This document shows positions 3,569 through 33,421 of a stretch of 41,245 bases of DNA, piece after piece. This stretch comes from a virus. Below the pieces are notes generated by a model that worked only from the letters and a program-made list of their open reading frames with translations, was not told where the DNA came from and did no database searches. Each line of letters opens with the position of its first letter. Within the stretch, counting starts at the first letter, position 1. Both the position numbers and the translations under genes were made by a program. The stretch lies in UHGV virus genome UHGV-0086138. One strand, given 5' to 3'.

Positions 3569-3585
3569 GTTACCGTTGAGGTAAT
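3569..3585. promoter_or_regulatory. operator-like palindrome GTTACCGTTGAGGTAAT overlapping -10/+1 of leftward early promoter
   Basis: matches ATTACCy-N3-AGGTAAT family; lies between TTGACA promoter and the small ORF start. Confidence 0.55.
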
Positions 3586-3606
3586 AATTATGCGTATCTG
3601 GTTTGA

Positions 3607-3612
3607 TGTCAA
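3607..3612 (-). promoter_or_regulatory. -35 hexamer (TTGACA on minus strand) of leftward early promoter (PL-like)
   Basis: perfect TTGACA, 16-17 bp from AT-rich -10 (TAATTA), flanked by two operator palindromes. Confidence 0.5.
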
Positions 3613-3630
3613 TAGATATGAGTTAAAAAA

Positions 3631-3647
3631 ATTACCCATTAGGTAAT
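3631..3647. promoter_or_regulatory. operator-like palindrome ATTACCCATTAGGTAAT
   Basis: 17-bp inverted repeat upstream of leftward promoter. Confidence 0.6.
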
Positions 3648-3654
3648 CGAATAG

Positions 3655-3682
3655 GCAATAAAAAAGCCGCCAGAAGGCGGCT
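3655..3682 (-). terminator. rho-independent terminator downstream of repressor gene
   Basis: hairpin AGCCGCC-AGAA-GGCGGCT followed by T-run on minus strand. Confidence 0.6.
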
Positions 3683-3703
3683 TACTTACTGAAAAATATG
3701 ATT

Positions 3704-4288
3704 TTATTGTTTGTTTTTTTCGTTCTGGTTGATGACAAATTCAATGTAACTTTCGATCTTTGCTTTCTCGGTTTCGGGTAACAATGCGTAGCGCGAGCGA
3801 TCATAGTTGATGGTCGCAGGGTCGTGCGGGTGAATCAGTAATTCATAGCCGTGACGCCCGAATGCGGATGCAACATTCTCCAGGGTGGAAATGGAAACGC
3901 TGACCTCATTGTTTAACAGGCGGCTGATTGTCACCTGGGCGACGCCGGATGCGCGGTGTAGTTTTCCCTGCGTTGAAAGGTCGCGGCTTTCGCTCATCCA
4001 GCGTTCCAGGTTGTGAGCCGCCAGCTGACCTATATCACTCGGGCCGACAGGCTGAAAACCTTCCTGAGAAAGCGAGCGATCGATATCAAGCCAGTTACGG
4101 GGTTTATTGGCGGCAGCTTCAATTTTTCGCGCAACCTGGTCGCCGATAACCTTCTTGCCAAGAGCCCAGCGGTTTACCAGATTTGCCTGAGTTCCAAGTT
4201 TTTCTGCCATCCGCGTCTGAACACCATTGAATTCACGGTCGATCAAGTCGTTGAGATTTTGCCTGCGGACGTCCTGGATACTTTTCAT
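3704..4288 (-). CDS. prophage repressor with two XRE-type helix-turn-helix regions; no LexA-like S24 peptidase domain evident
   Basis: 194 aa; HTH-like segments near residues 25-45 and 110-135; divergent from Cro-like gene with three operator palindromes in between. Confidence 0.7.
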   Translation of the reverse strand: MKSIQDVRRQNLNDLIDREFNGVQTRMAEKLGTQANLVNRWALGKKVIGDQVARKIEAAANKPRNWLDIDRSLSQEGFQPVGPSDIGQLAAHNLERWMSESRDLSTQGKLHRASGVAQVTISRLLNNEVSVSISTLENVASAFGRHGYELLIHPHDPATINYDRSRYALLPETEKAKIESYIEFVINQNEKNKQ

Positions 4289-4342
4289 TTTCTGGAAAAT
4301 CGCCTCATATATGAATCAGTAGATGATTCAATTTAAAGCAAT

Positions 4343-4359
4343 ATTACCCAACAGGTAAA
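4343..4359. promoter_or_regulatory. operator O1 ATTACCCAACAGGTAAA (repressor/cro intergenic)
   Basis: first of three tandem palindromes between divergent repressor and cro genes. Confidence 0.65.
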
Positions 4360-4360
4360 T

Positions 4361-4377
4361 GCACCTCATAGGTAACT
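4361..4377. promoter_or_regulatory. operator O2 GCACCTCATAGGTAACT
   Basis: degenerate member of same palindrome family, 2 bp from O1. Confidence 0.5.
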
Positions 4378-4390
4378 ATCCTTGATTTTT

Positions 4391-4407
4391 GTTACCTTAT
4401 GGGTGAA
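4391..4407. promoter_or_regulatory. operator O3 GTTACCTTATGGGTGAA within spacer of cro promoter
   Basis: follows TTGATT -35 (4382-4387). Confidence 0.55.
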
Positions 4408-4430
4408 TATTTATTATCTGAAATAAATAT
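4407..4430. promoter_or_regulatory. AT-rich inverted repeat ATATTTATT-N6-AATAAATAT in cro leader
   Basis: 9-bp arms, between cro promoter and RBS. Confidence 0.4.
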
Positions 4431-4442
4431 CAGGCAATAGCT

Positions 4443-4673
4443 ATGAGCGATAACGGACATTTCGATTTCAAAAAGCACTGGCTTGCACTTACTCCGGATG
4501 AGCGTGAAGCCTTCGCACAGGAAGCCGGAACGACGAGTCACTATATCCAGACTCACTTAACAGGTAAGCGCAAAATGCCAGGTAAAGTATTGATGAATGG
4601 GCTTTTTAAAGCCTGTAAAACAAGACAATGGCTGCGCTTAAAAGCAGAACTGGCATACTTCTTCTACTCATGA
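4443..4673 (+). CDS. Cro-like HTH regulator
   Basis: 76 aa; HTH segment; divergent from repressor; followed by intrinsic terminator. Confidence 0.65.
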   Translation: MSDNGHFDFKKHWLALTPDEREAFAQEAGTTSHYIQTHLTGKRKMPGKVLMNGLFKACKTRQWLRLKAELAYFFYS

Positions 4674-4695
4674 TATCCAGCTACAACCCTCTGTA

Positions 4696-4718
4696 GACCG
4701 CCACCCGGCGGTCTTTTC
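4696..4718 (+). terminator. rho-independent terminator after cro
   Basis: hairpin GACCGCC-ACCC-GGCGGTC then TTTTC. Confidence 0.65.
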
Positions 4719-4727
4719 ATATCTATT

Positions 4728-4744
4728 CGTACCTCAAAGGTAAT
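4728..4744. promoter_or_regulatory. operator-like palindrome CGTACCTCAAAGGTAAT
   Basis: located after cro terminator and before TTGATC promoter-like hexamer. Confidence 0.55.
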
Positions 4745-4823
4745 AAAAAACCAAATCTGGTTGATCTTTTTTTTGTGTCAGCACAAAATGACCGTAATCC
4801 CAATACTAATAACAGGGCTTACC

Positions 4824-5039: not shown

Positions 5040-5903
5040 ATGAGCAGACATGCAACAGATTGGGCCTGGGAGACAGATCCAGGTAGCTCATCATTAAAGC
5101 TCATACTGCTCTCGATGGCTGACAGAGCCGATGAATATAACCTCTGCTACCCCAGCATAGAACGCCTCGTTAAAGACACTTGCCTGAATAAAAAAACCGT
5201 GCAGGCCGGGCTTATATCGCTCATGAAAATGGGGCTTATTTCAGATACCGGAGAGAGAAAGGGAGCGACAAAAAGAGTGCGGGTTTTCTCTCTTAATATA
5301 ACCAAAAACGGGAACATTAAAGGCAACCGAGAGGGGGGCAATGAACCCGAAAACGGTAATGTTACCGAAAACGGGAATATACCCAAAAACGGGATGTTGA
5401 ATGATCCCAAAAACGGGATGTTGAATGATCCCAAAAACGGGATGTTGAATGATCCCAAAAACGGGATGTTGAATGATCCCAAAAACGGGATCCAGAACCA
5501 GTCATATAACCAGTCATTTAACCAAGAGAGGGAGAGCAGGACAAAAAACGGGGATTCTGTGCATCATGACCCCGGCGCAAACAACGCCGTGATGAATAAC
5601 TTTGTTCCTCCTGGTGGGCCAGGGCAATTAGGCAAATTTGTCATGCATGAACAATGGCAGCCATCAGATGACTTTCTTCGGAAAAGCTCATTGCAGGGGA
5701 TCTACCTGGACAGTCTGCCAACGGCACAGGAACTTGCAGAGTTCAGAATTTACTGGATGGCTGAGGGTAAGGCATACCATCAGGCACAGTGGGAGCAGAA
5801 GCTGGCAAGGCGGCTGCAGATTAGCAGACAGAAGCAATCAACATTACCTGATAACAACGTTCCGCACTGGAACAGCCCTGAAGCATGGGAGGATTTCTTG
5901 TGA
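5040..5903 (+). CDS. replication initiator (lambda O-like role) with N-terminal HTH and internal iteron array
   Basis: 287 aa; N-terminal HTH-type domain; 4 perfect 24-bp direct repeats inside gene (encode PKNGMLND x4); followed by P-like gene. Confidence 0.75.
   Translation: MSRHATDWAWETDPGSSSLKLILLSMADRADEYNLCYPSIERLVKDTCLNKKTVQAGLISLMKMGLISDTGERKGATKRVRVFSLNITKNGNIKGNREGGNEPENGNVTENGNIPKNGMLNDPKNGMLNDPKNGMLNDPKNGMLNDPKNGIQNQSYNQSFNQERESRTKNGDSVHHDPGANNAVMNNFVPPGGPGQLGKFVMHEQWQPSDDFLRKSSLQGIYLDSLPTAQELAEFRIYWMAEGKAYHQAQWEQKLARRLQISRQKQSTLPDNNVPHWNSPEAWEDFL
5347..5491 (+). repeat. iteron-like direct repeats inside replication initiator gene (4 perfect 24-bp units CCCAAAAACGGGATGTTGAATGAT at 5382-5477, flanked by degenerate copies)
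   Basis: perfect tandem units read directly; analogous to ori iterons inside lambda O. Confidence 0.7.
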
Positions 5904-6721: not shown

Positions 6722-6738
6722 ATTACCCATCAGGTAAT
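6722..6738. promoter_or_regulatory. operator-like palindrome ATTACCCATCAGGTAAT
   Basis: after P-gene terminator. Confidence 0.6.
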
Positions 6739-6783
6739 AAAATATTCTAAACTCTATTGATTTCGTGTCTTATGTGGTTTTTA

Positions 6784-6800
6784 ATTACCTCAGAGGTAAA
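6784..6800. promoter_or_regulatory. operator-like palindrome ATTACCTCAGAGGTAAA overlapping RBS of 6803 gene
   Basis: follows TTGATT-17-TTTAAT promoter-like element; AGGT of right half doubles as Shine-Dalgarno. Confidence 0.6.
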
Positions 6801-6802
6801 TC

Positions 6803-7147
6803 ATGAGAAAACAGATGCAGGCTCTTGGTCGACTCAAAACAGGCCAGATGAACAAAACAGAATCTGCGTATTGCCAGCATCTTGAGCAGCGTAAACGTGC
6901 AGGGGAAATCGCCTGGTATCGATTCGAGGGTATCAAGCTGCGGTTAGCTGATAACACGTTCTATACGCCAGATTTCGCTGTGATGCTCGCCACCGGAGAG
7001 ATGGAACTGCACGAAGTGAAAGGTTTCTGGACCGACGACGCCAGGGTGAAAACCAAAGTCGCCGCAGATCAGTATCCGTTCCGAATCATCGGGGTAACGG
7101 TTAAGCCAAAGAAAGCAGGTGGCGGATGGAAAATCGAAGAGTTCTGA
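6803..7147 (+). CDS. DUF1064-family phage protein
   Basis: 114 aa; typical size and motifs of DUF1064 proteins found in phage replication modules. Confidence 0.6.
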   Translation: MRKQMQALGRLKTGQMNKTESAYCQHLEQRKRAGEIAWYRFEGIKLRLADNTFYTPDFAVMLATGEMELHEVKGFWTDDARVKTKVAADQYPFRIIGVTVKPKKAGGGWKIEEF

Positions 7148-10395: not shown

Positions 10396-10424
10396 ACTAT
10401 TACCACAACGGTAACTATTACCAC
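10396..10424 (+). repeat. two 11-bp direct repeats ACTATTACCAC (10396-10406, 10414-10424) just upstream of terS start
   Basis: read directly. Confidence 0.6.
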
Positions 10425-10431
10425 GGTGGTT

Positions 10432-11028
10432 ATGATGCCTGCTGAACCTAAAACCTATAAACGCAAATCAACGCAATTTAAGCCACTAACAGCAATGCAG
10501 GAGGCTTATTGCCAGTCATACATCAAAACGCCTGAAAACCAGACTCAGGCAGCGATTAACGCAGGATTCTCCCCAAATACAGCGGCAGTTAAAGCCAGTG
10601 TCATGATGCGCGATGAACGCATTCAAAAACGGATTGCCGAGCTGATGGAGGAGCGCAACAAACGAATGCGCGTCAGTGCCGATTACGTTCTTATGCGCCT
10701 GGTGGAGATCGACCAGATGGATGTGATCGACATCCTCAACGACGATGGGAGCCTTAAACCAATCCGTGAGTGGCCGAAAATCTGGCGCACTACGCTTAGT
10801 GGCTTTGATCTGTCATCGACCATCATGAACATGAACGAGGATTCGATAGAGACAATCCTCAAAAAAATTAAATGGCCTGACAAGGTGAAGAACCTTGAGC
10901 TGATTGGTAAGCATGTTGATGTCAACGCGTTCAAAGAACGTCTGGATGTTAATGTGAATGTGACAATTGCTGATCGCATAGCAGCAGCCAGGAAGCGACT
11001 CAAAGAACGTCAGGATGGTAATCAGTGA
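10432..11028 (+). CDS. terminase small subunit
   Basis: Precedes large terminase with overlapping stop/start; start placed at ATG 10432 because upstream part of track ORF is low-complexity translation of direct repeats. Confidence 0.65.
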   Translation: MMPAEPKTYKRKSTQFKPLTAMQEAYCQSYIKTPENQTQAAINAGFSPNTAAVKASVMMRDERIQKRIAELMEERNKRMRVSADYVLMRLVEIDQMDVIDILNDDGSLKPIREWPKIWRTTLSGFDLSSTIMNMNEDSIETILKKIKWPDKVKNLELIGKHVDVNAFKERLDVNVNVTIADRIAAARKRLKERQDGNQ

Positions 11029-13145: not shown

Positions 13146-13222
13146 TGGCGTGGCATGCAGGATTCGAACCTGCGACCAACCGCTTAGAAGGCGGTTGCTC
13201 TGTCCAACTGAGCTAATGCCAC
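13146..13222 (-). tRNA. tRNA-Arg (anticodon UCU)
   Basis: Cloverleaf read from reverse complement: 7-bp acceptor stem GTGGCAT/ATGCCAC, D-arm GCTC..GAGC, anticodon stem ACCGC/GCGGT with loop CUUCUAA, T-arm GCAGG-TTCGAAT-CCTGC, 3' CCA encoded. Confidence 0.85.
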
Positions 13223-13543: not shown

Positions 13544-13560
13544 CTTACCTGAAAGGTAAT
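13544..13560. promoter_or_regulatory. operator-like palindrome CTTACCTGAAAGGTAAT upstream of structural operon
   Basis: same motif family, about 90 bp upstream of 13650. Confidence 0.55.
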
Positions 13561-31020: not shown

Positions 31021-31037
31021 ATCACCCGTAAGGTAAT
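31021..31037. promoter_or_regulatory. operator-like palindrome ATCACCCGTAAGGTAAT
   Basis: upstream of minus-strand mini-ORF/leader and membrane-protein gene. Confidence 0.5.
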
Positions 31038-31108: not shown

Positions 31109-31819
31109 TCAGAAGAACCCTGCCTTGTCGTTGATGTATTCCGCGTGCGTCTGGATATCACGCAGGCATTTGCTCACACCGACGATGTAGCAGAACATGG
31201 TGGTCAGCTCCGCCGCCGCGCCCGATACGTCGTGCCCGTCTTCCTGTAACTGGTTCAGCAGATTCATCAGCAGTGAGTTCTCCGTCAGGCCGAGAACACC
31301 AGACGGCGAGTGAATCAGGCTGCGGTAGCCGGGCTTCAGCGGGGCGCTGTAGGTTTTGTTCTCTATCTTCATTGCCTGCATCACTGCTGATGCTGTGGCG
31401 TTTGCAACCTGGTCGGCAACCATCTTTATGCGTTCTTCCTGCGGGAGCGAGTTTTTAATGTAACTTCCGGTGCGGCGGATCTGAGGAAGAACCTCACCTG
31501 TAACCCATTTACGAAAGCGGTAGGGGATAGTGCCTGGTGTCACTGCGTCGCGGCAGCGGAGGATCAGTGTGTAGAGGCCTGACTCGGAGATGATGTTGAT
31601 CTCTTTTACTCGGCTGTCAAAAATTGCACGATGTTCATGCCCTATGTTGAACATAGACCTTTCATCATCATCCAGTTTTTCAAGTGCTTGGGTGACGTTT
31701 TGGATACGCAGCGCACTACAAACGTCTTGGGCTACAAACCATGGTTGGCCATCGATAATGATGGAACGGATAGGGTTAACAGATTCAAATTTGAAGATGG
31801 CAGTTTGAGCATTAGCCAT
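31109..31819 (-). CDS. antirepressor (Bro-N domain plus C-terminal antirepressor domain)
   Basis: Bro-N-like N-terminus (FKFESVNPIRSIIIDGQPWFVAQDV); ATG 31819 with GGAG RBS; C-terminal domain paralogous to 32969..33226. Confidence 0.75.
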   Translation of the reverse strand: MANAQTAIFKFESVNPIRSIIIDGQPWFVAQDVCSALRIQNVTQALEKLDDDERSMFNIGHEHRAIFDSRVKEINIISESGLYTLILRCRDAVTPGTIPYRFRKWVTGEVLPQIRRTGSYIKNSLPQEERIKMVADQVANATASAVMQAMKIENKTYSAPLKPGYRSLIHSPSGVLGLTENSLLMNLLNQLQEDGHDVSGAAAELTTMFCYIVGVSKCLRDIQTHAEYINDKAGFF

Positions 31820-31975
31820 GGTGGTTATCTCCACTTAGTGATTTTAATCACCACCGCAACGCCAATTACTGGTGGTGAACTGGACAAGGTTGGCGTACCG
31901 GCCTAAGTGGTACCGGCGTCCTTTCGGACCCCTGCCCAGCCCACCATAATTCGGATATAGCTGTGCTTAACGCAT

Positions 31976-31997
31976 AAAAAAACCACGTCTGGCGTGG
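31976..31997 (-). terminator. intrinsic terminator inside antirepressor leader (minus strand)
   Basis: hairpin CCACG-CCAGA-CGTGG followed by T7 on minus strand, about 160 bp upstream of ant start. Confidence 0.5.
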
Positions 31998-32087
31998 TAT
32001 GCGCCACTTAGTAACTCGGGACGCCAATCCCGGCACTGGATTTTGCCAGTACCCGATTACTATGGCACAAGAGGAGTGCGATGTAAA

Positions 32088-32104
32088 TTTACCGCAAAGG
32101 TAAT
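32088..32104. promoter_or_regulatory. operator-like palindrome TTTACCGCAAAGGTAAT at antirepressor promoter
   Basis: overlaps -10/+1 of a putative minus-strand promoter (TTGATT...TTATCAT). Confidence 0.55.
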
Positions 32105-32181
32105 GATAAACGCGAAGAAATATTAAAAATCAACCGTATTTGGTTGGTTGCGTTTAACGCTTGATCACCTGAAAGCAAGAT

Positions 32182-32198
32182 ATTACCTTTAAGGTAAT
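32182..32198. promoter_or_regulatory. operator-like palindrome ATTACCTTTAAGGTAAT
   Basis: 20 bp upstream of the 32218 gene RBS. Confidence 0.6.
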
Positions 32199-32217: not shown

Positions 32218-32946
32218 ATGGAAGTTTTCTGGATAGTTGTTGGTGTGGTTGCGGTGATTATTTATGTTATCAACCAGAACAAGACTAAGATCTCTGATCG
32301 TACGGTCGTTAATCATAACAAAACGATAAAGACCGAAGATGGGGAGATAACGATTAATCGTACACAGGTGATAGAACACACCTCTACTCAGTTTCAAAAA
32401 ACTGGAGGTAATGCGCCTAATATTTCCGCACCTCCTGCTTATGATAGTGCGGTAATCCAGACATATTATAAACAGCAGGAGTTAGCAAAAGAGAGGCAAC
32501 TGATTCAGCCAAAGCCGTTTACAGCTGAGCTTCCACCTGGAGTGTCAACGCGTCCGGCATATCATGGAAGATTCCCTGGTGATGACATATCGTCTCAGTC
32601 ATCTAAAAAAGCACCTCAGGCAGTATCAGAGCCAGCAAGAATACCTTCTGTATCGCCGCCAAAAGAAGAATCAGCTAACAGAGTTTCAAGTGGTAGCAAG
32701 CAGTGCTTGCGATGCAGAATAAACCTACCATATGAAAAATTCAGGAAATCGTCAAAAAATCCAGATGGATTGACTAAGTGGTGTGCAAGGTGTCTCGATG
32801 GCCCAAAGAATACACGCCATATGAAGTGGTGCCCAATTTGTAATGTCCGCAGAAAACGAACCAGCTTTTACCCTAATAATCAAAATGCGGACGGATTAAT
32901 GGCATGGTGCAAAACGTGCTGGGATGAGCACAAAGCGAAACGATAG
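32218..32946 (+). CDS. membrane-anchored protein with duplicated C-terminal CxxC zinc-ribbon-like motifs
   Basis: N-terminal TM helix; two repeats of C-x2-C ... DGL-x-(K/A)WC-x(2)-C; GAGGA RBS. Confidence 0.5.
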   Translation: MEVFWIVVGVVAVIIYVINQNKTKISDRTVVNHNKTIKTEDGEITINRTQVIEHTSTQFQKTGGNAPNISAPPAYDSAVIQTYYKQQELAKERQLIQPKPFTAELPPGVSTRPAYHGRFPGDDISSQSSKKAPQAVSEPARIPSVSPPKEESANRVSSGSKQCLRCRINLPYEKFRKSSKNPDGLTKWCARCLDGPKNTRHMKWCPICNVRRKRTSFYPNNQNADGLMAWCKTCWDEHKAKR

Positions 32947-32968: not shown

Positions 32969-33226
32969 TTACCGGGTTTGTTTTCGTAATTGTTCGGCAC
33001 AATAGTCGAGATGTGTTTGCAGATCCCGCATAGACATCTGTGACCTGGTGACGTAGTTAATCAGTGCAGTCAGTTCGGCAAGTGGGCCATCGACATTAAA
33101 TCCATCCTTATCGAGATCCCGGAGTAATTTCATCAAGTGCGATCCCTCCACCAGTGATCTGACGCCTCCCGGCGTGTGAATCCTTTCGGTAAATCCGTCT
33201 TCCAGTGGATAGTGATACTGCTGCAT
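32969..33226 (-). CDS. small antirepressor-domain protein (paralog of Ant C-terminal domain), LexA-box controlled
   Basis: ATG 33226 with GGAG RBS; 86 aa aligns with C-terminal part of the 31109..31819 product; near-consensus LexA box lies upstream, which argues against the track start at 33349. Confidence 0.55.
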   Translation of the reverse strand: MQQYHYPLEDGFTERIHTPGGVRSLVEGSHLMKLLRDLDKDGFNVDGPLAELTALINYVTRSQMSMRDLQTHLDYCAEQLRKQTR

Positions 33227-33245: not shown

Positions 33246-33265
33246 AACTGTATATTTATACAGTA
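33246..33265. promoter_or_regulatory. LexA (SOS) box AACTGTATATTTATACAGTA
   Basis: CTGT-N8-ACAG with AT-rich spacer, 18 of 20 matches to consensus TACTGTATATATATACAGTA; about 20 bp upstream of the 33226 start. Confidence 0.7.
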
Positions 33266-33301: not shown

Positions 33302-33318
33302 ATCACCTGAAAGGTAAT
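33302..33318. promoter_or_regulatory. operator-like palindrome ATCACCTGAAAGGTAAT
   Basis: in divergent region between small antirepressor gene and tailspike gene. Confidence 0.55.
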
Positions 33319-33421
33319 ATCTGTTCGTATTTATGGGTTGTCTATCCATATGTGGTTTTTTAGGTAATAGAATGACCAGATATGCGGCGCAACGGGTGCT
33401 GCGACTATCTGGAGATTTAAC

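What the first reader, a model, noticed from the sequence alone, without database searches (positions are those of the whole stretch)
4343..4407. Tripartite operator of a previously unassigned palindrome family in the repressor/cro switch
Three tandem 17-bp inverted repeats of the form TTACCy-N3-AGGTAA (4343-4359, 4361-4377, 4391-4407) sit between the divergent tandem-HTH repressor gene and the Cro-like gene, with O3 inside the spacer of a TTGATT promoter. The geometry mirrors lambda OR1-3 but the half-site (ATTACC) is unlike the lambda, 434 or P22 operator sequences as I recall them. The repressor has two HTH regions and no visible autopeptidase domain, implying a different induction mechanism.
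Basis: partly seen in the sequence, partly recalled or inferred. Interest (0 to 1): 0.7.

Follow-up and report, generated by a model that had tools for sequence, protein, structure and literature searches.

The report
Known ε15-type phage repressor operator cluster
The three palindromes are real and are almost certainly the binding sites of this prophage's repressor at its lysis/lysogeny switch, but they belong to a motif and a repressor/antirepressor system already described for the related Salmonella phages ε15 and SPC32H, so the finding is correct but ordinary.

Summary
The window is a phiV10/ε15-like temperate podophage (Uetakevirus). The three sites exist: O1 4344-4358 is perfect, O2 4361-4375 has 2 mismatches, and O3 4392-4406 has 1. 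The core is TTACC-N5-GGTAA. They lie between the divergent repressor gene and a Cro-like gene, and O3 sits inside the spacer of an invariant TTGATT promoter. The motif is far beyond chance: 9 exact copies against 0.04 expected, only at spacing 5, all intergenic.

It is not an unassigned family. The ε15 RefSeq record already annotates the same 17-bp palindrome as "repressor" binding sites. The repressor is a full-length homolog (E 4e-42) of the crystallised SPC32H Rep (PDB 5D50). SPC32H, ε15 and 9 other Rep loci carry the same three-site layout.

The window has a LexA-boxed small antirepressor, 86% identical to SPC32H Ant.

These include conserved operator pairs 62 bp apart that bracket promoters. 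There is also a second antirepressor module controlled by a C4 antisense RNA.

Verdict: observation confirmed, interpretation partly supported, novelty low.

The parts
4344..4358 (.). O1, a perfect TTACC-N5-GGTAA operator (17-mer 4343-4359). It lies in the spacer and -35 of the putative leftward rep promoter.
4361..4375 (.). O2, a degenerate operator (GCACC...GGTAA) between the two divergent -35 elements. The same position holds a perfect site in epsilon15, SPC32H and the Klebsiella phage.
4392..4406 (.). O3, an operator with 1 mismatch (GGTGA) inside the spacer and -10 of the rightward promoter.
4382..4387 (+). TTGATT, the putative -35 of the rightward (lytic, PR-like) promoter. TTGATTTTT is invariant in six phages. 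The -10 is inferred at about 4405-4410, or alternatively TATTAT at 4412-4417.
   Evidence: the promoter assignment is inferred
4330..4359 (-). Putative rep promoter on the minus strand: -35 TTTACC (4359-4354) and -10 TAAATT (4335-4330). The core bases are invariant in the alignment.
   Evidence: inferred, no mapped transcription start
3704..4288 (-). rep, a 194-aa repressor. It has an N-terminal HTH DNA-binding domain, a middle HTH_3-like dimerisation domain and a C-terminal tetramerisation/Ant-binding domain. There is no S24 peptidase domain.
4443..4673 (+). Cro-like first gene of the rightward operon (76 aa). It is 75% identical to SPC32H orf42 and matches PHROG 35 'transcriptional repressor'.
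3570..3646 (-). PL-like module. Operators at 3570-3584 and 3632-3646, 62 bp apart, bracket TTGACA(3612-3607)-17-AATTAT(3589-3584) on the minus strand. This is upstream of the leftward recombination/excision operon.
4729..4743 (.). Operator with 1 mismatch (GTACC...GGTAA), after the terminator that follows the cro-like gene.
6723..6799 (+). Third bracketed promoter. Operators at 6723-6737 and 6785-6799, 62 bp apart, flank TTGATT(6757-6762)-17-TTTAAT(6780-6785). The downstream operator contains the RBS of the DUF1064 gene (ATG at 6803).
10400..10432 (.). Two operators (10400-10414 perfect, 10418-10432 with 1 mismatch) abutting the terminase small-subunit start codon (10435).
   Evidence: epsilon15 equivalents at 12-26 and 30-44
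13545..13559 (.). Perfect operator upstream of the head-gene operon.
   Evidence: epsilon15 equivalent at 2932
31022..31036 (.). Operator with 1 mismatch, between the Bro-N/Ant fusion gene and the DUF4760 gene.
32089..32197 (.). Two perfect operators (32089-32103 and 32183-32197) in the divergent region between the isrK/C4/Bro-N-Ant transcript and ORF 32218-32946.
33303..33317 (.). Operator with 1 mismatch between ant and the tailspike gene. It is conserved with SPC32H (20013) and epsilon15 (19896, annotated there as a repressor site).
32969..33226 (-). ant, an 85-aa antirepressor. It is 86% identical to SPC32H Ant (PDB 5D50 chain E).
33246..33265 (.). LexA (SOS) box AACTGTATATTTATACAGTA, 20 bp upstream of the ant start codon. 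It is the only strong SOS box in the window.

Best explanation
The finding is the central (OR-equivalent) operator cluster of the Rep/Ant immunity system of an epsilon15/phiV10/SPC32H-type temperate podophage.

Rep's N-terminal HTH domains recognise the 17-bp palindrome aTTACC-N5-GGTAAt. The half-site centres are 10 bp apart, which is one helical turn. By homology with SPC32H Rep, the protein acts as a tetramer that presents two pairs of DNA-binding domains, so one tetramer can hold two operators.

At the switch, O3 lies in the spacer and -10 of the rightward lytic promoter and blocks RNA polymerase. O1 lies in the core of the leftward rep promoter and would give negative autoregulation. O2 lies between the two -35 elements. 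There it could supply cooperativity, and possibly activation of rep transcription.

The same operator also sits at the other early, late and accessory control regions. These include pairs 62 bp apart centred near -62 and +1 of conserved promoters. Rep therefore silences almost the whole prophage directly.

Induction does not use RecA-stimulated autocleavage. DNA damage removes LexA from the SOS box at the ant promoter. Ant is then made, binds the C-terminal domains of Rep, breaks up the tetramer and releases it from all operators.

Shown here: the motif, its statistics, its positions and its conservation; Rep and Ant homology; the LexA box.

Inferred: the exact promoters and transcription starts, which operators one tetramer bridges, and the role of the Cro-like protein.
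For: - Identity of the element: 98% DNA identity to phiV10-like phages over 3600-4800. Rep is 100% identical to phiV10 and ZX5 Rep, and overexpressing that protein blocks lytic growth and cuts lysis-gene transcription by more than 99.9% (PMC9782041).
- Rep is a full-length homolog of SPC32H Rep, PDB 5D50: E 4e-42 over residues 1-190. No S24 domain was found.
- The motif is extremely enriched, occurs only at spacing 5 and is entirely intergenic.
- The identical motif is annotated as repressor-binding in epsilon15.
- The same three-site layout is found in epsilon15, SPC32H, Tyrion, BUCT554 and a Klebsiella phage, and in six prophages of other enterobacterial genera.
- The half-sites are invariant while the N5 spacer varies.
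- The recognition-helix segment NLVNRW..G.K.IG..AR.IE is invariant although overall Rep identity is only 42%.
- Distant homologs that match only the DNA-binding domain have a different helix and lack the motif.
- Ant is 86% identical to SPC32H Ant, and its operator, LexA box, RBS and ATG region is conserved.
- Published descriptions of SPC32H Rep: it binds palindromic sites as a tetramer, its DNA-binding domains pair across dimers, and an Ant tetramer splits it (PMC9638917). It has an N-terminal DNA-binding domain, a middle dimerisation domain and a C-terminal tetramerisation/Ant-binding domain, with the dimerisation-domain pairs about 100 angstroms apart (PMC9986798).
Against: - There are no binding data for this phage's Rep on these exact sites in anything I could read.
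- The three primary papers could not be opened (Kropinski 2007, Kim & Ryu 2013, Kim et al. 2016). I therefore cannot say which operators were mapped experimentally, or on what basis the epsilon15 annotation was made.
- The epsilon15 record annotates 7 sites but not the three in its own rep/gp39 intergenic region.
- O2 in this window scores barely above background.
- The consensus promoter scan is no better than shuffles, so the promoter positions rest on conservation alone.
- The strongest site, O1, overlaps the rep promoter rather than the lytic promoter. This is unusual and unexplained.
- The Cro-like protein's fold match to Cro/XRE proteins is not significant.
Confidence: 0.85

Rival explanations
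1. One reading: a lambda-style OR1-OR3 switch built on a new operator family. Dimers would bind cooperatively to adjacent sites, and induction would use some unknown, non-S24 mechanism.
For: There are three sites between divergent repressor and cro-like genes, with one site inside a promoter spacer. The half-site differs from those of lambda, 434 and P22. That last point rests on my own knowledge and was not tested here.
Against: The motif is already annotated for epsilon15. The repressor is homologous to the tetrameric SPC32H Rep, not to CI. The operator spacings of 17 and 31 bp, and the 12 further sites elsewhere in the genome, do not fit an OL/OR-only design. The induction route can be identified as LexA-controlled Ant.
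Confidence: 0.04
2. The palindrome is read mainly by another protein rather than by Rep. Candidates are the Cro-like protein, another phage regulator (the PerC-like or AlpA-like genes), or a conserved enterobacterial host factor.
For: There is no direct binding evidence here. In lambdoid phages Cro shares the operators with the repressor, so dual use is plausible. The Cro-like protein matches a PHROG family of transcriptional repressors. All phages that carry the motif infect Enterobacterales.
Against: The motif occurs in all 12 loci with a full-length Rep and in none of the 5 loci whose homolog matches only the DNA-binding domain and has a different recognition helix. Rep's recognition helix is invariant against 42% overall identity (56). 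Rep overexpression silences lysis genes. The epsilon15 curators assigned the sites to the repressor. I know of no E. coli factor with this consensus; that is from my own knowledge and was not tested.
Confidence: 0.07
3. The palindromes act as nucleic-acid hairpins, such as RNA stability or terminator elements or cruciforms, rather than as protein-binding sites.
For: They are inverted repeats. Some copies fold better than shuffled sequence (3570 gives -7.2 kcal/mol, z = -4.1).
Against: The three switch sites fold weakly, at -2.0 to -4.3 kcal/mol with z between -0.8 and -1.6. The stems are 5 bp and AT-rich, with no U-tract. The arm sequence itself is invariant, with no compensatory changes, while the loop varies. 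The sites lie at promoters upstream of genes, and the real terminators are separate GC-rich hairpins.
Confidence: 0.02

Closest known systems
Salmonella phage SPC32H Rep/Ant lytic switch (Kim & Ryu 2013; Kim et al. 2016; PDB 5D4Z and 5D50)
   Same: The genus, gene order and Rep domain architecture are the same: full-length homology at E 4e-42 and no S24 domain. Ant is 86% identical and has a LexA box at its promoter. The operator palindrome is identical, and the three-site rep/orf42 layout is the same, as are the 62-bp pairs.
   Different: Rep is only about 42% identical overall. Here O2 is degenerate (GCACC), whereas SPC32H has a perfect site. This phage also carries a Bro-N/Ant fusion gene behind isrK and C4 RNAs.
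Salmonella phage epsilon15 gp38 repressor and its annotated 17-bp 'repressor' binding sites (NC_004775; Kropinski et al. 2007)
   Same: The motif TTACC-N5-GGTAA is the same and sits at equivalent places: downstream of rep, after the replication genes, before terS, before the head genes, and between ant and the tail fibre gene.
   Different: The epsilon15 record does not annotate the three sites in its own rep/gp39 intergenic region, although they are present at 33341, 33358 and 33388. Epsilon15 has three sites downstream of rep, and this window has two.
Phage lambda OR1-OR2-OR3 with CI and Cro
   Same: There are three operators between divergent repressor and cro-like genes, they overlap both promoters, and a second operator cluster lies on the far side of the repressor gene.
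   Different: There is no S24 autocleavage domain. By homology the repressor is a tetramer with trans-paired DNA-binding domains. The spacings are 17 and 31 bp. Only one site overlaps the lytic promoter. Operators also occur at late and accessory promoters. Induction is by an antirepressor.
Dispersed-operator global phage repressors (P1 C1; mycobacteriophage L5 gp71); comparison from my own knowledge
   Same: One repressor has many operator copies spread over the genome at many transcription units. Here there are about 15 sites in 9 intergenic regions. There is also a P1 immI-like module with a C4 antisense RNA and an antirepressor.
   Different: The proteins and site sequences are unrelated. 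The sites here are symmetric, whereas P1 and L5 sites are asymmetric. No homology was tested.
LexA-controlled antirepressors of non-cleavable repressors (coliphage 186 Tum; Gifsy and Fels-2 antirepressors, Lemire et al. 2011)
   Same: The logic is the same: an SOS signal leads to LexA cleavage, then antirepressor synthesis, then reversible inactivation of the repressor.
   Different: The Ant protein family and the mode of action differ. Ant binds the repressor's C-terminal domain and breaks up the tetramer.

Membership tests
epsilon15/SPC32H-type Rep-Ant immunity system (Uetakevirus) | Repressor with an N-terminal HTH DNA-binding domain, a middle dimerisation domain and a C-terminal tetramerisation/Ant-binding domain, and no S24 peptidase | tested here: met
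   phmmer against PDB 5D50_A gives E 4e-42 over residues 1-190 of 194. Pfam finds only HTH families. The domain description comes from PMC9986798.
epsilon15/SPC32H-type Rep-Ant immunity system (Uetakevirus) | Small (about 86 aa) Ant antirepressor encoded next to the tailspike gene | tested here: met
   The product of 32969-33226(-) is 86% identical to SPC32H Ant and matches 5D50_E at E 7e-46. The tailspike ORF starts at 33422.
epsilon15/SPC32H-type Rep-Ant immunity system (Uetakevirus) | LexA box at the ant promoter | tested here: met
   CTGTATATTTATACAG at 33248-33263 is the only strong SOS box in the window and is conserved with SPC32H and epsilon15.
epsilon15/SPC32H-type Rep-Ant immunity system (Uetakevirus) | 17-bp palindromic operators aTTACC-N5-GGTAAt at the rep/cro region and at other promoters | tested here: met
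epsilon15/SPC32H-type Rep-Ant immunity system (Uetakevirus) | Rep physically binds these operators as a tetramer and is released by Ant | not testable with these tools
   This is known only through secondary descriptions of SPC32H work. The primary papers are not held.
Lambda-type CI/Cro tripartite OR switch | Repressor with a C-terminal S24 (LexA-like) autocleavage domain | tested here: not met
   There is no Peptidase_S24 hit at E <= 0.1. The whole length is accounted for by homology to SPC32H Rep.
Lambda-type CI/Cro tripartite OR switch | Three operators between divergent PR and PRM, two over PR and one over PRM, with roughly even spacing of about 23-24 bp | tested here: not met
   Three sites are present, but the spacings are 17 and 31 bp, only O3 overlaps the rightward promoter, and O1 overlaps the putative rep promoter. 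The promoter positions are inferred.
Lambda-type CI/Cro tripartite OR switch | Cro binds the same operators with the opposite order of affinity | not testable with these tools
   For the Cro-like protein there is only a PHROG 35 hit and a non-significant fold resemblance to XRE/Cro proteins.
Dispersed-operator global repressors (P1 C1 or L5 gp71 style) | Many operator copies at many transcription units across the genome | tested here: met
   There are about 15 sites in 9 intergenic regions and none in coding sequence. This is a resemblance in how the system works, not in homology.

The most novel reading that the evidence does not exclude
The fixed operator spacings are not known to me to have been analysed. 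The 62 +/- 1 bp pairs are conserved at two different promoters in all 12 Rep loci and are centred near -62 and +1. At the switch the spacings are 31 bp (O2-O3) and 17 bp (O1-O2).

These spacings may mean that a single Rep tetramer clamps each promoter in a phased micro-loop, using its two pairs of DNA-binding domains, which lie about 100 angstroms apart. The odd third site at the switch could then allow bridging to the PL pair about 750 bp away.

This phiV10-type lineage also feeds two antirepressor inputs into one repressor: the LexA-controlled Ant and a Bro-N/Ant fusion controlled by C4 and isrK RNAs.
Probability: 0.25. Interest if true: 0.4.

Novelty: already known. Interest (0 to 1): 0.12.

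Why it matters
It matters little as a discovery. The operator motif, the repressor family, the antirepressor and the SOS link are all in public records and papers for sister phages, and this prophage type is common. Its switch region is found at 95% identity or more in 539 of 5426 complete E. coli genomes.

There is some practical value. The phiV10-type records do not annotate these operators. The ε15 record omits the three switch sites. The ZX5 paper named the Bro-N protein as 'the' antirepressor without noting the SPC32H-type ant gene and its LexA box. The site map given here could therefore improve annotation. It could also guide engineering of phiV10-based reporter phages and experiments on promoter bracketing by the Rep tetramer.

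Tried and rejected
- I tried to open the three primary papers: Kropinski 2007 (PMC2698709 and by DOI), Kim & Ryu 2013 (PMC3807360) and Kim et al. 2016 (PMC4983836). None is held. What was mapped experimentally in SPC32H and ε15 is therefore known to me only from secondary citations, database annotation and memory.
- A literature search for the motif string returned only irrelevant hits.
- I looked for a hidden S24 domain in Rep and found none.
- I tested the hairpin reading. The hairpins are weak and show no covariation, so I rejected it.
- I looked for alternative palindromic operators upstream of the distant homologs that match only the DNA-binding domain (L013-L017), hoping for a clean covariation between helix and half-site. 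Only short TGATCA- or GTTAAC-type palindromes turned up, which was not informative. What remains is the weaker presence/absence correlation.
- The consensus promoter scans gave no more hits than shuffled sequence. Promoter assignments therefore rest on cross-phage conservation.
- A single-sequence AlphaFold model of the Cro-like protein (pLDDT 71) gave only non-significant matches to XRE/Cro/C-protein folds.
- The phiV10 GenBank record has no operator features.

Full report
**What the window is.**
- The region 3600-4800 is 96-99% identical to phiV10, vB_EcoP_ZX5, phiv142-3, TL-2011b and other E. coli Uetakevirus podophages. It is 77% identical to Enterobacter phage Tyrion.
- Gene order matches phiV10 and ε15: methylase, RecT/exonuclease, two small genes, terminator, repressor, divergent small gene, terminator, DnaT-like and P-like replication genes, and so on.
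- The 154-bp rep/cro intergenic region occurs at 95% identity or more in 539 of 5426 complete E. coli genomes. This is a common prophage type.

**Checking the observation.**
- The sequence contains O1 at 4344-4358 (TTACCCAACAGGTAA), O2 at 4361-4375 (GCACCTCATAGGTAA) and O3 at 4392-4406 (TTACCTTATGGGTGA).
- They lie between rep (3704-4288, minus strand) and a 76-aa gene (4443-4673, plus strand).
- O1 is a perfect match to the core TTACC-N5-GGTAA. O3 has one mismatch and O2 has two.
- The window holds 9 exact copies where 0.04 are expected. It holds 14 copies with at most one mismatch where 0.7 are expected. There are none at spacings 0-4 or 6-11 (one search agrees).
- A PWM trained only on sites outside the finding ranks O1, O3 and O2 at 8th, 12th and 14th of about 41,000 positions.
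- O2 is not significant on score alone. It occupies a position where ε15, SPC32H and a Klebsiella phage have perfect sites.
- TTGATT (4382-4387) directly precedes O3, and TTGATTTTT is invariant in six phages. The promoter itself is inferred.

- The cluster is one of many. All 15 sites fall in intergenic DNA, although at least 93% of the window is covered by ORFs. Two apparent overlaps are caused by over-extended or spurious ORFs.
- The sites occupy nine control regions:
  - downstream of rep, before the leftward recombination operon (3570, 3632);
  - the switch itself;
  - after the cro-like gene's terminator (4729);
  - after the replication genes (6723, 6785);
  - abutting the terS start (10400, 10418);
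  - before the head genes (13545);
  - next to the accessory genes (31022, 32089, 32183);
  - between ant and the tailspike gene (33303).
- Two of these regions share a conserved module. An upstream operator is followed by an invariant CTATTGA(C/T) -35 element, a 17-bp spacer, and a -10 element fused to a downstream operator. The two operators are 62 bp apart.
- That 62 ± 1 bp spacing recurs at both places in essentially all 12 Rep-encoding loci examined.

**Identity of the repressor.**
- Pfam sees an HTH_3 match at residues 106-147, a weaker YdaS-like HTH at 21-61, and no S24 peptidase.
- The protein aligns over residues 1-190 with the Rep of Salmonella phage SPC32H, PDB 5D50, at E 4e-42.
- It is 100% identical to the phiV10 and ZX5 repressors.
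- ZX5 ORF21 (this same protein) abolished free phage when overexpressed and cut endolysin and holin transcripts by more than 99.9% (PMC9782041).
- For SPC32H Rep, secondary sources describe an N-terminal DNA-binding domain, a middle dimerisation domain and a C-terminal tetramerisation/Ant-binding domain (PMC9986798).
- Those sources also say it binds palindromic sites as a tetramer, with DNA-binding domains paired across dimers, and that a tetrameric Ant disassembles it (PMC9638917).
Only the first HTH is the DNA reader.

**The motif is already assigned.**
- The ε15 RefSeq record (NC_004775) carries seven protein_bind features labelled 'repressor / lysogeny'.
- They are copies of TTACC-N5-GGTAA, and ε15 has 11 exact copies in total.
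- SPC32H has the same set, including three sites between rep and orf42 at 34390, 34407 and 34437.
- The six-phage alignment of the switch region shows O1, O2, TTGATTTTT and O3 in register. The half-sites are invariant and the N5 spacers vary.
- Six further prophages from Superficieibacter, Erwinia, Klebsiella, Citrobacter and Scandinavium show the same pattern.
- My recollection is that Kropinski et al. 2007 reported this consensus as ATTACCWDWWNGGTAAT. I could not open the paper, so that detail rests on memory.

**Link between Rep and the motif.**
- Rep proteins of the clade are only about 42% identical overall. The segment NLVNRW..G.K.IG...AR.IE in the N-terminal domain is nevertheless invariant. 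This matches the invariant half-site.
- Five distant loci match only the DNA-binding domain at 35-40% identity. They have different residues there (TQVSRL or SIVNQH) and no copy of the motif.
- This is a presence/absence correlation, not a full covariation test.

**Induction.**
- A perfect SOS box (AACTGTATATTTATACAGTA, 33246-33265) is the only strong one in the window.
- It lies 20 bp upstream of an 85-aa ORF (32969-33226, minus strand). That ORF is 86% identical to SPC32H Ant and matches chain E of 5D50 at E 7e-46.
- The whole control region (Rep operator, LexA box, RBS, ATG) is conserved with SPC32H and ε15.
- This is the published antirepression route for non-cleavable repressors of this group (cited in PMC7380047, and in bioRxiv 10.1101/2025.11.27.690993).

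**How the switch most likely works (inference).**
- For the rightward promoter I take -35 at 4382-4387 and -10 at about 4405-4410. This puts the O3 centre at about -18, O2 at about -49 and O1 at about -66.
- On the minus strand, invariant bases fit a rep promoter with -35 TTTACC (4359-4354) and -10 TAAATT (4335-4330). This puts O1 at about -28, O2 at about -45 and O3 at about -76.
- On that reading O3 represses lytic transcription and O1 autoregulates rep. O2 lies between the two -35 elements, where it could supply cooperativity and perhaps activation of rep.
- O2-O3 (31 bp) and the 62-bp pairs are close to whole numbers of helical turns.
- The dimerisation-domain pairs of the Rep tetramer are about 100 angstroms apart. 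One tetramer could therefore plausibly hold two operators and bracket a promoter.
- None of this has been tested, and the consensus promoter scans do no better than shuffles.

**Rivals.**
- A lambda-type switch with a new operator family is contradicted by the homology results.
- Another protein as the main reader cannot be excluded without binding data. The co-occurrence of Rep and the motif makes it unlikely. Shared use by the Cro-like protein is quite possible (PHROG 35; fold resemblance not significant).
- A hairpin role is unlikely. The switch sites fold at only -2.0 to -4.3 kcal/mol with z between -0.8 and -1.6. It is the arm sequence that is conserved, not merely the pairing.

**Verdict.**
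The novelty claim and the closeness of the lambda analogy are not supported.
- Novelty: already known.
- The remaining open points are modest. They are the meaning of the fixed 17, 31 and 62-bp operator spacings for a tetrameric repressor, and the presence of a second, RNA-controlled antirepressor module in this lineage.

Noticed in passing
window 31109-32103 (minus strand): There is a second antirepressor module. The 241-aa ORF at 31109-31834 combines a Bro-N domain with a C-terminal domain that is 43% identical to the small Ant, and both match PHROG 450. Its leader carries Rfam matches to C4 antisense RNA (31868-31951, 66 bits) and to isrK Hfq-binding RNA (31976-32052, 63.5 bits). This resembles the P1/P7 immI c4-ant arrangement. 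A promoter-like TTTACA-17-CATAGT (32087..32059) abuts the Rep operator at 32089. The ZX5 paper calls this kind of Bro-N protein 'the' antirepressor.
   Followed up: partly
L002 (epsilon15 NC_004775) 33341-33402: The epsilon15 record annotates seven repressor-binding sites but not the three in its own rep/gp39 intergenic region (33341, 33358 and 33388). It also omits 24704 and 35969. It places an IHF site at 33307-33329 instead.
   Followed up: partly
window 3570/3632 and 6723/6785; loci L001-L012: Operator pairs exactly 62 bp apart (61-63 bp in a few loci) bracket a conserved CTATTGA(C/T) -35 element, and the -10 element is fused to the downstream operator. This is conserved at two different promoters across 12 phage and prophage loci. 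The downstream operator at 6785 also contains the RBS of the next gene.
   Followed up: partly
window 3704-4288 compared with L002/L003 rep, and window 32969-33226 compared with L003 ant: The Rep proteins of phiV10-type and SPC32H/epsilon15-type phages are only about 42% identical. They nevertheless share the operator consensus and a nearly identical Ant (86%). This suggests possible cross-immunity or cross-induction between E. coli and Salmonella members.
   Followed up: no
window 10400-10437: Two operator copies 18 bp apart run directly into the terminase small-subunit start codon (ATG at 10435). The second copy overlaps the likely RBS. In epsilon15 and SPC32H the equivalent sites lie 12-44 bp from the left end of the linear genome record. 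Whether they act in late-gene repression or in something related to packaging is unclear.
   Followed up: no
window 5362-5482: The DnaT-like replication gene (5040-5903) contains four tandem repeats of about 24 bp that encode NGMLNDPK. This looks like an iteron or origin array embedded in the initiator gene.
   Followed up: no
window 13146-13222 (minus strand): tRNA-Arg (anticodon TCT) between the terminase and head-gene regions. SPC32H has a tRNA-Arg at the equivalent place.
   Followed up: no
window 33303-33344 (minus strand): A promoter-like TAGACA-17-GATATT has its -10 element fused to the Rep operator at 33303-33317. It points towards ant, upstream of the LexA-controlled promoter. If it is real, loss of Rep would boost ant transcription, giving positive feedback on induction.
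   Followed up: no
L013-L017 (Paraburkholderia, Hydrogenovibrio, Thiomicrospira): These loci encode homologs of only the Rep N-terminal DNA-binding domain. They share the start MKSI.D.RR.N but have a different recognition helix, and they have no TTACC-N5-GGTAA sites. Their operators were not identified.
   Followed up: partly
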